Assembly (NCBI RefSeq): GCF_902652985.1
Contig: NC_047022.1
Location: forward strand, 21,452,001 to 21,516,000
Source of the DNA: Pecten maximus
Taxonomy: Eukaryota
DNA length: 64,000 nucleotides
Direction of reading: 5' to 3'
In this document: positions 18,001-21,000 of the stretch, one piece after another
Layout of the letters: every line of letters begins with the position of its first letter
Numbering within the stretch: position 1 is the stretch's first letter
Program-made: the position numbers

Positions 18001-21000
18001 AACTCATTAATATTGTATCGATAATTACCTGACAATTTTGAACATACAAAAACGCATTTCTCTCGTAATATTCAATGTAAGAAAGATACCATATGTTTTT
18101 TTTTTTTGTTATACATTATACACTTATATCAAATAAAACATTTAAATTATACTGTGAGGAAAATATCATAGATCATTTGCGTTTTATAATCTGATACAAA
18201 ATGATTTTCAAAGACAATTTGACATAACTTACAAAATCCGGTATTTTGTATGTCGTATTATGTACATTGTACATACATATGTATTTAATTCGTTTGATGT
18301 GCTTTATTGTTGTAAAAAAAATCAAAAATAAATCTTGGATCTGCAATCAATTTCCCATGCATATTAAATTCACGAGAACGTTTTCTTTCTTGACGATTCA
18401 TTGCACTCAACACCTTGCAGTGGTAAGGTCATAATTTAAACAACGGAGCGTAAAGCCAAACACAGATCCACCAGACGGTGTAAACAGACGGTGTAAACAT
18501 GTGTTAATTATACTTTTTTTTTTAAATATTAAAAATATTGTACTGCAACACAATGTTGTGATGACGTGTTGAATGCTGACGTGACGTGGTTGTTGCCAGC
18601 ACGTAATATACCCTAGGAGTTGACAGAGCAATCACTACATATGGATGATAGAAATTAAACAGGTACACGAGAGACAATTGTGTGATTGATCAGAGAAAAT
18701 CAGGTCTGCGTTTAAGATGTTACATGATGGAGTGTTATTATTTAGTCGTTCCGCAATTATGTCACATATGTAACGAACATGCCTCTGATAACAATACTAT
18801 ACCAGAGAGTAATAACATCACACTGGTGATGAACGTAATCCTTACACGTGAATTGAGCGTACCAGTGTGATGACAATAACGATACTATACAAGAGAGGGG
18901 TGACGTCACACTGGTGATGAACGTAATAGTTACACGTGAATTGAGCGTACCATTGTGATGACAATAACGATACTAACATGAGAGTGGTGACGTCACACTG
19001 GTCACGTGAATTGAGCGTACCTGTGATGACAATAACGATACAAAACATGAGAGTGGTGACGTCACACTGGTGATGAACGTAATCCTTACACGTGAATTGA
19101 GCGTACCAGTGTGATGACAATAACGATACTAACATGAGAGTGGTGACGTCACACTGGTCACGTGAATTGAGCGTACCTGTTATTATGACAGTTTTACCGT
19201 TGAGCTGGCGCGAACTCTGACATGGGACGGTCCAGCGCAGGTAACGTCTCCAGAAGAAGACCAACAGGAGGAAGAATGAGATGACCACTGGTATGAGGAG
19301 AACTGTAGAATAGCTCTGAATCACTTGTTTCATCTCCAGTCGGATTTGTCGCCACAGTTCCTTGGAACTTGTCATGTTCTTGACTCCAGCCGATGGCTCC
19401 ATATTGTATTTCTTAGTTTCACAAGTTAAAACTACTCACACATATTGATAAAGTTTTAAATGTTCAGTATAAACTCGGGGGTCCTATGCGTAGCTACTTG
19501 TGTGCTGTCCGATTGTAAATCGGTACTGCGGAGGAGCGGTATCAATCGTGTTATAGTGATGGATCTGCCTTCTGCTACACCTATCTCGTGGCTCCCCCTC
19601 CTCCCACGGCCCGGGTTGTATAATGTTACTCCACACAACAGCAGACCGACACAGCCCGCGTGGCTGTCTCTTATCTTTATTACGAGTAAATTGAGCCCCC
19701 TTTCCTGTTGCTCCGGTGTATCATAGTATAAGTTTAAAACAGCAGGTACCTTATACATCCTCTCGTATATACTCTACTGGTGCATAACGAACGGGGAACA
19801 TTATGTTTACGCTTTACAGAAGCATTCCAATACATACATACATACATACATACATACATACATACATACATACATACATACATTACATACATACGTANNN
19901 NNNNNNNNNNNNNNNNNNNNNNNNNNNNNNNNNNNNNNNNNNNNNNNNNNNNNNNNNNNNNNNNNNNNNNNNNNNNNNNNNNNNNNNNNNNNNNNNNNNN
20001 NNNNNNNNNNNNNNNNNNNNNNNNNNNNNNNNNNNNNNNNNNNNNNNNNNNNNNNNNNNNNNNNNNNNNNNNNNNNNNNNNNNNNNNNNNNNNNNNNNNN
20101 NNNNNNNNNNNNNNNNNNNNNNNNNNNNNNNNNNNNNNNNNNNNNNNNNNNNNNNNNNNNNNNNNNNNNNNNNNNNNNNNNNNNNNNNNNNNNNNNNNNN
20201 NNNNNNNNNNNNNNNNNNNNNNNNNNTAAAAACGATTGGCAATCAAGCTATAGCATAAAACATGTGGTATTGTGAATGAGGCAGAACCGTTTCTTCCAAC
20301 GTCATGTGTAAGTAAGAGTATTAATTGTCACCTGACATTAAACCTCGGGAACGTTATCGCATTCAGATAGATTCCAGAGACGAGTTGCGAGTCTCAGCAG
20401 AAAACGCGCTTTTCACCCTTCTACAATACACGCGCATTGGCACGGCTAACATTTTCTTTCGCGCACTTTTAAAAATCTCATTATCATGAAACATTGTCTG
20501 TGCAGAGCGCGTGTTTTCCTCGTCAGGAGTTAAAGGGTTATCGTGTGTTCCTACTCCGCGAGGTCTTACAATAGATACTCACAGCAGTTATATAAACAGT
20601 GCTGTGGCGCGGAGAATTTCATCTAAATGTCAAAGTATTTGCGTATATGATCACGACTTATAAATGTGCATGTATTTTCGTTATCTTTAGTTTTTTTTTT
20701 ATCAGGGCACATGTCATATTTTCGTTATAAAGTTGGCAGTGTTCATGTGAAACATTTGTAAATATGATTCCTGCTGTTTTGTTTAATTTTAAAATGACGT
20801 GTGTGTATAACAGCCAGAAGATATACAGCGAATACTGACATACACACGATGACCGATAGCAGCCTGACACGAATATAGTAAAGTAAATGTGTTCCGCTAA
20901 TTAACGGCAACATCATGACACAAAAATCTATGTAAATTAAATTTGTACCGATAATTAGTCCAAAACATCATGACACAAAAATCTCTAGTTAAGTAAATGT

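What the first reader, a model, noticed from the sequence alone, without database searches (positions are those of the whole stretch)
18862..19200. Tandem repeat duplicates the SDR exon-1 splice donor in frame and rebuilds the Rossmann beta-1 strand
Seen: the donor GTACGC occurs five times (19176, 19106, 19020, 18950, 18862). The copy at 19020 has the same ACAG|GTACGC context, lies exactly 156 nt (52 codons) downstream with no stop, and is preceded by IVIVITG, mirroring the native TVIITG. Inference: splicing there gives a +52-aa isoform that keeps an intact TG|ASGGLG cofactor motif, lengthening the linker between TM anchor and catalytic domain. The donors at +70, +226 and +314 nt would frameshift, so repeat copy number could tune expression.
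Basis: partly seen in the sequence, partly recalled or inferred. Interest (0 to 1): 0.65.

Follow-up and report, generated by a model that had tools for sequence, protein, structure and literature searches.

The report
Minisatellite repeating a scallop gene's splice donor
A short tandem repeat that starts four bases inside the first exon of a scallop retinol-dehydrogenase-like gene copies its splice donor into the intron, a known kind of arrangement in which the extra donors usually stay unused.

Summary
On the minus strand GTACGC sits at 19176, 19106, 19020, 18950 and 18862, inside a five-unit array of 70/86/70/88/88 nt. The full 9-mer CAG|GTACGC occurs only at 19176 and 19020. The 19020 copy lies 156 nt downstream, in frame, with no stop, and ends in IVIVITG.

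The gene is a four-exon RDH13-like SDR, 87-88% identical to a Mizuhopecten yessoensis protein. That protein carries the canonical TVIITG|ASGGLGK join and no insert.

Two 156-nt blocks, both starting at ACAG, align ungapped at 149 of 156, so the repeat reaches only 4 nt into exon 1. Upstream of ACAG the exon and the repeat are no more alike than chance. The beta-1 look-alike therefore comes from intron sequence, not from copied codons.

The repeat-encoded peptide has no relative among 1.84 billion proteins.

This is a boundary-spanning minisatellite, as in human F7 intron 7 and the amphioxus "mirages", where pseudo-donors are mostly silent (PMC1557585, PMC3087553). A +52-aa isoform is formally possible. 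I could not test it: no RNA data were available, and the joined spliced model was not searched or folded. Interest is low to moderate.

The parts
19177..19402 (-). Exon 1 coding part (ATG to the last exon base, 226 nt, ends in phase 1). It encodes the N-terminal hydrophobic anchor and the beta-1 strand KTVIITG.
   Evidence: tblastn of P0001 residues 1-77 gives 87% identity. The hydropathy peak lies at residues 33-51.
19171..19179 (-). Authentic 5' splice site CAG|GTACGC. It is the most upstream copy.
   Evidence: The join TVIITG|ASGGLGK is identical in the ortholog. The U1 duplex is -7.1 kcal/mol, the weakest donor of the gene.
18775..19180 (-). Minisatellite array. It starts with the last 4 nt of exon 1 (ACAG) and has five units, S-L-S-L-L', the last one degenerate.
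   Evidence: TRF gives 18845-19180 with period 156 and 18788-19002 with period 88. The 156-nt blocks match ungapped at 149 of 156.
19107..19176 (-). Unit S1 (70 nt). It holds CACGTGAC and GTGACGTCAC.
19021..19106 (-). Unit L1 (86 nt). It starts with pseudo-donor CTG|GTACGC (19106), holds CGT|GTAAGG (19089) and ends ...ATCGTTATTGTCATCACAG.
19015..19023 (-). Pseudo-donor psi-2, CAG|GTACGC. It is identical to the authentic 9-mer, lies +156 nt downstream, and is in frame.
   Evidence: Its U1 duplex is also -7.1 kcal/mol. The first 71 nt after the exon/intron cut are identical downstream of both sites (intron +1..+67 of the ACAG-registered blocks plus ACAG).
18951..19020 (-). Unit S2 (70 nt).
18863..18950 (-). 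Unit L2 (88 nt). It starts with pseudo-donor ATG|GTACGC.
18775..18862 (-). Unit L' (88 nt, 3' half degenerate). It starts with pseudo-donor CTG|GTACGC and forms the array edge.
6695..19176 (-). Intron 1 (12,482 nt), rich in other tandem arrays.
6452..6694 (-). Exon 2 (243 nt). It carries the rest of the glycine-rich motif, (G)ASGGLGK.
   Evidence: Pfam adh_short scores 64.5 bits against a 26.6 cut-off.
5677..5982 (-). Exon 3 (306 nt), with YARSK (the YxxxK motif).
   Evidence: adh_short scores 29 bits against a 26.6 cut-off.
4575..4948 (-). Exon 4 coding part, including the stop codon.

Best explanation
This is an intronic minisatellite whose first unit spans the exon-1/intron-1 boundary of a scallop RDH13-like short-chain dehydrogenase gene.

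An older array of roughly 88-nt units, and a 70-nt deletion variant of them, already lay at the start of intron 1. A later 156-nt tandem duplication had its end-points in the shared bases ACA: AATAACAG in the exon and CATCACACTG in the repeat. That duplication carried the last 1-4 exon bases with it, which created a second exact CAG|GTACGC 156 nt downstream.

The authentic, most upstream and cap-proximal donor is the one used for the normal protein. The four GTACGC copies and the other cryptic GT sites are pseudo-sites that are silent or used at low level. Three things are by-products of the repeat's length and its T-rich codons, not selected features: the in-frame spacing, the open frame and the IVIVITG ending.

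Shown: the anatomy, the canonical join, and the absence of relatives of the insert peptide.
Inferred: the order of duplications, the silence of the pseudo-sites, and neutrality.
For: Array anatomy is.

The two 156-nt blocks, registered from ACAG, match at 149 of 156 with no indel. L1 ends CATCACAG where L2 ends CATCACACTG, which is exactly what a duplication with ACA microhomology predicts.

No similarity between exon and repeat exists upstream of ACAG beyond chance (78 of 400; 112, 75 and 124 of 300).

The same ATCGTTATTGTCATCAC is present in the first four units and is read as SLLSSH in the S units, so IVIVI depends on frame.

A chance beta-1 look-alike, ILILG, also precedes exon 2 inside intron 1.

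The ortholog protein has the canonical join and no insert.

No protein resembles the read-through peptide.

Tandem arrays cover 21.7% of the window, so a minisatellite next to an exon is not surprising here.

No other copy of the unit exists in the window, so it is a local array and not a dispersed element, as far as 64 kb can show.

Precedents come from PMC1557585 (abstract, introduction, discussion read) and PMC3087553 (passages read).
Against: Nothing here measures splicing.

The authentic donor is weak: 7 of 9 consensus matches, and a U1 duplex of -7.1 kcal/mol against -9.2 and -14.0 for the gene's other donors.

Psi-2 has the same 9-mer and the same sequence for 67 nt into the intron.

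Thermodynamic folding makes the authentic site less accessible than psi-2. Mean probability unpaired is 0.03 against 0.34, with a regional median of 0.44.

The joint chance of being in frame, open and hydrophobic is small if the three are independent: about 1/3 x 0.07 x 0.005.

In two of the five human precedents named in PMC1557585 (6-16 and CBS) proximal pseudo-sites are used.

Only one related protein was found, from another genus. An isoform specific to this species could not have been seen.
Confidence: 0.65

Rival explanations
1. Alternative 5' splice-site use at 19020 makes a real +52-aa isoform. It would have a longer, cysteine-bearing linker between the membrane anchor and an intact Rossmann domain, with IVIVITG serving as beta-1.
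For: The 9-mer and U1 duplex energy are identical to the authentic site. The copy is in frame with no stop, and the junction would keep TG|ASGGLG. Predicted accessibility is higher than at the authentic site. The human 6-16 and CBS genes use proximal pseudo-sites (PMC1557585, introduction).
Against: The ortholog lacks any insert. The insert has 0 relatives in 1.84 billion representatives. The native KTVIITG would be left as an orphan hydrophobic strand. In F7, LMNB2 and PDGF identical downstream sites are silent, including repeats of 81-100 nt, the size class nearest this one (PMC1557585). The 95.5% block identity suggests a young, lineage-specific duplication. The isoform model was not folded or searched, because the joined step was left out.
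Confidence: 0.12
2. The pseudo-donors act as decoys. Splicing at the out-of-frame copies (19106, 18950, 18862), or at GTAAGG 19089 where the junction codon would be a stop, gives transcripts with premature stops that are degraded. Repeat copy number would then set the productive fraction.
For: Several cryptic donors with at least 6 of 9 consensus matches lie in the array, and 3 of the 4 GTACGC copies are out of frame. Minisatellites are usually length-polymorphic (PMC3087553 passages; PMC1557585 introduction).
Against: These sites have weaker exon sides and U1 duplexes of -4.1 to -4.9 kcal/mol. Sites 19106 and 18862 lie in a 10-nt inverted repeat and are predicted to be partly paired. No data exist here on polymorphism or expression.
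Confidence: 0.08
3. The array is a promoter-proximal regulatory module. Each unit carries a CRE-like palindrome (GTGACGTCAC) and an E-box (CACGTG), so duplication multiplied transcription-factor sites just downstream of exon 1. The motif names are recalled, not tested here.
For: TGACGTCA occurs 8 times in the window against 0.66 expected, and 4 of the 8 lie in the array. TCACGTGA occurs twice, both in the array.
Against: The four copies are one site multiplied by the repeat, not independent evidence. TCACGTGA at 2 copies is reached by 20 of 100 shuffles. No conservation or binding data exist.
Confidence: 0.1
4. Assembly artefact: the copy number or order of units is wrong, for example two haplotypes laid in tandem or a mis-resolved repeat.
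For: The scaffold has an N gap about 700 nt away, at 19898-20226. The region is repeat-rich.
Against: The blocks differ at 7 of 156 positions, and S and L variants alternate in an ordered way. The array is only about 400 nt, and nothing in its own sequence suggests a join. Reads could not be inspected.
Confidence: 0.05

Closest known systems
Human F7 intron 7 37-bp VNTR (Borensztajn et al. 2006, PMC1557585; abstract, introduction and discussion read)
   Same: The first monomer spans the exon/intron boundary and includes the last 4 bp of the exon, so the authentic donor is followed by identical pseudo-donors. The authentic site is the most upstream copy.
   Different: The unit here is 70-88 nt with a 156-nt higher-order period, against 37 bp in F7. 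Only one of the four copies keeps the full 9-mer. It sits at a first exon, not an internal one, and in a mollusc. Splicing outcome and polymorphism are unknown here.
Amphioxus 'mirages': minisatellite-like duplications of exon/intron boundaries in Adh3 and globin genes (PMC3087553; passages read)
   Same: These are invertebrate genes with tandem units of similar size (BflGb6 150-160 bp, BflGb9 157 bp) that span a boundary and carry cryptic splice signals. Regular splicing is reported as undisturbed.
   Different: Those units carry a sizeable exon part. Here only 1-4 exon bases can be shown to be copied. The globin cases mostly involve the 3' boundary or exon 2.
Human 6-16 (IFI6) intron 2 and CBS intron 13 minisatellites (as cited in the introduction of PMC1557585; the original papers were not read)
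   Same: The donor is reiterated by a boundary-spanning minisatellite.
   Different: The psi-2 site here is 156 nt away and is the second copy, not the nearest. No transcript data exist.
Retinol dehydrogenase 13-like protein of Mizuhopecten yessoensis (P0001) and the classical SDR family PF00106
   Same: 87-88% identity over all four exons, the same N-terminal hydrophobic anchor, the same TVIITG|ASGGLGK join, and YxxxK.
   Different: The window's species is another scallop-like organism.

Membership tests
Boundary-spanning minisatellite (F7 IVS7 type / 'mirage') | Head-to-tail tandem array of units of tens to about 160 nt | tested here: met
   TRF gives periods 156, 88 and 69 at 89-95% matches. 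Five units were aligned.
Boundary-spanning minisatellite (F7 IVS7 type / 'mirage') | The first unit includes the exon/intron junction, so the donor sequence is reiterated in the intron | tested here: met
   The array reaches 19180, 4 nt into exon 1. Blocks starting at ACAG match at 149 of 156. CAGGTACGC occurs twice. Homology further into the exon was tested and not found.
Boundary-spanning minisatellite (F7 IVS7 type / 'mirage') | The authentic splice site is the copy that gives the conserved protein | tested here: met
   The ortholog P0001 reads ...GKTVIITGASGGLGK..., matching 19177 joined to 6694.
Boundary-spanning minisatellite (F7 IVS7 type / 'mirage') | Pseudo-sites silent or minor in vivo, and copy number polymorphic | not testable with these tools
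   No RNA-seq, reads or second haplotype are held. No eukaryote DNA collection was open.
Classical short-chain dehydrogenase/reductase (Pfam PF00106), RDH13-like | adh_short profile above the curated cut-off | tested here: met
   Exon 2 frame scores 64.5 bits and exon 3 frame 29 bits, against a 26.6 cut-off (exon by exon). Ortholog P0001 scores 106.9 bits, with the profile starting at residue 70.
Classical short-chain dehydrogenase/reductase (Pfam PF00106), RDH13-like | Glycine-rich TGxxxGxG and catalytic YxxxK (motif definitions recalled) | tested here: met
   TG in exon 1 and ASGGLG in exon 2. YARSK in exon 3.
Functional alternative 5' splice-site isoform | Transcript junction evidence for the distal donor | not testable with these tools
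   No transcript data. The near-length and longer protein searches found no protein with the insert.
Functional alternative 5' splice-site isoform | The insert peptide is conserved or found in other proteins | tested here: not met
   0 proteins at E<=0.001 among 1,835,955,588 representatives, using the 111-residue read-through peptide as query. The ortholog has no insert.

The most novel reading that the evidence does not exclude
The in-frame pseudo-donor at 19020 is used alongside the authentic one. The gene would then make a membrane-anchored RDH13-like enzyme with a 52-residue repeat-born linker and a replacement beta-1 strand, and the isoform ratio would vary with repeat allele. That would be a natural invertebrate case of coding sequence born from a boundary minisatellite, and a model for choice between identical 5' splice sites at a first exon.
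Probability: 0.12. Interest if true: 0.5.

Novelty: new member of a known kind. Interest (0 to 1): 0.25.

Why it matters
If the extra donors are silent, this is one more boundary-spanning minisatellite, possibly the first noted in a bivalve. My two searches listed no bivalve case, but these were limited keyword searches of open-access text.

It is then mainly a warning for gene prediction in repeat-rich mollusc genomes. Predictors may pick the in-frame copy and report a false +52-aa protein.

If the in-frame copy is used, the locus would be a handy natural test of how the spliceosome chooses between identical donors 156 nt apart at a cap-proximal exon. It would also be an example of new coding sequence arising from a repeat.

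Tried and rejected
1. Homology of the beta-1 codons to the repeat end. Anchored alignments of the exon end against the unit end were no better than window controls (78 of 400; 112, 75 and 124 of 300 under three gap settings). I dropped the idea that the beta-1 codons themselves were duplicated.

2. Dispersed element. blastn of the 156-nt unit against the window gave only the array itself plus 10-12-nt chance hits. A transposon or satellite family could not be checked beyond the 64 kb.

3. Isoform in protein databases. The 'longer' search gave 1 hit among 330 candidates, and that hit has no insert. The 'near' search gave 0 of 30 candidates. The exhaustive representative search gave 0.

4. Cluster members of P0001, where other scallop isoforms might sit.

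5. RNA structure as a mask for the pseudo-sites. The array folds better than shuffles (z = -3.04, 0 of 100). However, predicted accessibility does not favour the authentic site, so structure gives no argument for silence.

6. The repeat finder for inverted repeats failed on a strand argument and was not resent. The 10-nt inverted repeat was read and located.

7. Scallop RDH13 literature: 0 papers.

8. The joined spliced models, canonical or +52 aa, were not searched or folded. Exons were searched one by one only.

Full report
**What the window is.** The window is AT-rich eukaryotic DNA of 31-48% G+C, with one N run at 19898-20226 that I left alone. The read-through frame of exon 1, searched against longer proteins, gave one hit among 330 candidates. 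The hit is P0001, 'retinol dehydrogenase 13-like [Mizuhopecten yessoensis]', 384 aa, 88% identical over the first 76 residues. tblastn of P0001 finds four minus-strand pieces at 86.5-87.5% identity. I take the contig for a scallop-like mollusc, not human.

**Gene model.** All exons lie on the minus strand.

| Exon | Coordinates | Note |
|---|---|---|
| 1 | 19402-19177 | from ATG to the last exon base |
| 2 | 6694-6452 | |
| 3 | 5982-5677 | |
| 4 | 4948-4575 | includes the stop codon |

Exons were searched one at a time. The exon 2 and exon 3 frames pass Pfam adh_short at 64.5 and 29 bits, against a cut-off of 26.6. I did not search or fold any joined spliced model, canonical or extended.

**The observation.** It is correct.
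- GTACGC on the minus strand begins at 19176, 19106, 19020, 18950 and 18862.
- The units between them measure 70, 86, 70, 88 and 88 nt, and the last is degenerate in its 3' half.
- TRF reports period 156, 2.1 copies, 95% matches over 18845-19180, with nested 88- and 69-nt periods.
- The full 9-mer CAG|GTACGC occurs only at 19176 and 19020. That is 2 found against 0.09 expected, with 0 of 100 shuffles reaching 2.
- Reading on from exon 1 gives 52 codons without a stop, ending IVIVIT+G at 19021.

**Which join is real.** The ortholog reads ...NGKTVIITGASGGLGKSTAYDLAKRGAKVILACRN.... This is what joining 19177 to 6694 gives, and it has no insert. Pfam places adh_short profile position 1 at residue 70 of the ortholog, so KTVIITG is beta-1.

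**How the copy arose.** Registered from ACAG, the blocks 19180-19025 and 19024-18869 align without a gap at 149 of 156.
- L1 ends CATCACAG, whereas L2 and S1 end CATCACACTG and S2 ends CATCACAATG.
- A 156-nt tandem duplication whose end-points lie in the shared ACA, of exon AATAACAG and repeat CATCACACTG, reproduces exactly this pattern.
- It means that only 1-4 exon bases were copied. This order of events is inference.
- Upstream of ACAG the exon and the repeat are no more alike than controls: 78 of 400 CAG-ending window 40-mers reach the observed score. Under three gap settings, 112, 75 and 124 of 300 ACAG-flanking 30-mers do so.
- The beta-1 codons themselves were therefore not shown to be duplicated.
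- The string ATCGTTATTGTCATCAC is in the first four units. It reads IVIVI in L1 but SLLSS in the S units.
- A similar accidental look-alike, ILILG, precedes exon 2 inside intron 1.

**How improbable the extras are.**
- In-frame spacing: 1 in 3.
- An open 52-codon frame: 1,608 of 20,000 shuffles of the block, and 1,266 of 18,104 windows of 156 nt.
- Five hydrophobic codons in a row: 634 of 127,966 five-codon windows.

Jointly these are rare for one locus. However, they were picked out after the fact, and they carry no evidence of selection.

**Donor strength and context.**

| Site | Matches to CAG\|GTAAGT | U1 duplex, kcal/mol |
|---|---|---|
| Authentic, 19176 | 7 of 9 | -7.1 |
| psi-2, 19020 | 7 of 9 | -7.1 |
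| Other three GTACGC copies | 5-6 of 9 | -4.1 |
| CGT\|GTAAGG, 19089 and 18845 | 6 of 9 | -4.9 |
| Exon 2 donor | not scored | -9.2 |
| Exon 3 donor | not scored | -14.0 |

- The U1 5' end motif used for the duplex energies is recalled, not taken from a tool.
- The site at 19089 is in phase, but its junction codon would be a stop.
- The array RNA folds better than shuffles: -134.8 against -119.0 +/- 5.2 kcal/mol, z = -3.04.
- Predicted accessibility runs against my reading. Mean probability unpaired over positions -3 to +6 is 0.03 at the authentic site. It is 0.37, 0.34, 0.23 and 0.13 at the four copies, with a regional median of 0.44.
- These are equilibrium predictions and decide nothing about splicing in vivo.

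**Is the insert a protein part anywhere?** The 111-residue read-through peptide (18845-19177) had 0 hits at E<=0.001 among 1,835,955,588 representatives. The near-length search scored none of 30 candidates. No eukaryote genome or transcript collection was open, so orthologous introns and RNA evidence stayed unchecked.

**Background.** Tandem arrays cover 13,866 of 64,000 nt, or 21.7%. I merged 18 intervals by hand from the 31 TRF rows and summed them. Intron 1 alone holds a 4.1-kb 47-bp satellite. The unit has no other copy in the window.

**Comparison with what is known.** PMC1557585 (abstract, introduction and discussion read) describes minisatellites whose first monomer spans an exon/intron boundary.
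- LMNB2 (100-bp units) and PDGF (81-bp units) also use only the authentic site.
- 6-16 and CBS use the two nearest pseudo-sites as well.

PMC3087553 (passages read; its additional files were not seen) describes 'mirages' in amphioxus Adh3 and globin genes. Their units are 150-160 bp, and regular splicing is not disturbed.

The present locus meets the testable defining features of this kind. In vivo silence and length polymorphism could not be tested. Searches for a bivalve case and for scallop RDH13 (0 papers) found none. These are limited keyword searches, not proof of absence.

**Verdict.** It is a new member of a known kind, with interest about 0.25. The boldest reading still open is a real +52-aa isoform tuned by repeat allele, at a probability of about 0.12.

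Noticed in passing
window 7754-11849 (also 1-883, 12096-12390, 13557-14572, 16212-17324): Intron 1 and its surroundings are packed with tandem arrays, including a 47-bp satellite of 87 copies. In all, 21.7% of the window is tandem repeat.
   Followed up: partly
window 19830-20226: An (ATAC)16 microsatellite runs into the N gap 19898-20226, about 430 nt upstream of the start codon. The promoter of the SDR gene is therefore only partly readable. The gap was left alone.
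   Followed up: no
window 19233-19245 (-): Exon 1 contains UUACCUG, a look-alike of the U1 snRNA 5' end. It is predicted to pair with the authentic donor (partner of +1 at 19241, p = 0.95).
   Followed up: partly
window 18818-19158 (-): A 10-nt inverted repeat. ACCAGUGUGA occurs in all five units, and its complement UCACACUGGU overlaps the pseudo-donors at 19106 and 18862 only.
   Followed up: partly
window 6695-6707 (-): The last bases of intron 1, read in the exon 2 frame, give ILILG just before ASGGLG. This is a chance beta-1 look-alike, and tblastn and Pfam extend into it.
   Followed up: yes
window 24569-24925 (-): An open frame matching reverse transcriptase RVT_1 (35 bits against a 29.6 cut-off). 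It is probably a retroelement remnant.
   Followed up: no
window 41506-41742 (+) and 61797-62111 (+): Exon-like frames matching the C-terminal end of Rad1 (42.1 bits) and a TLC domain (35.5 bits). These are neighbouring genes on the other strand.
   Followed up: no
window 32496-32503 and 32748-32755: Two more TGACGTCA palindromes, 252 nt apart, in a CpG-bearing stretch. This may be a promoter.
   Followed up: no
window 45620-46931 and 55223-55463: A 145-bp satellite (9 copies) and a 125-bp array whose consensus looks like its reverse complement. They may be two arms of one element.
   Followed up: no
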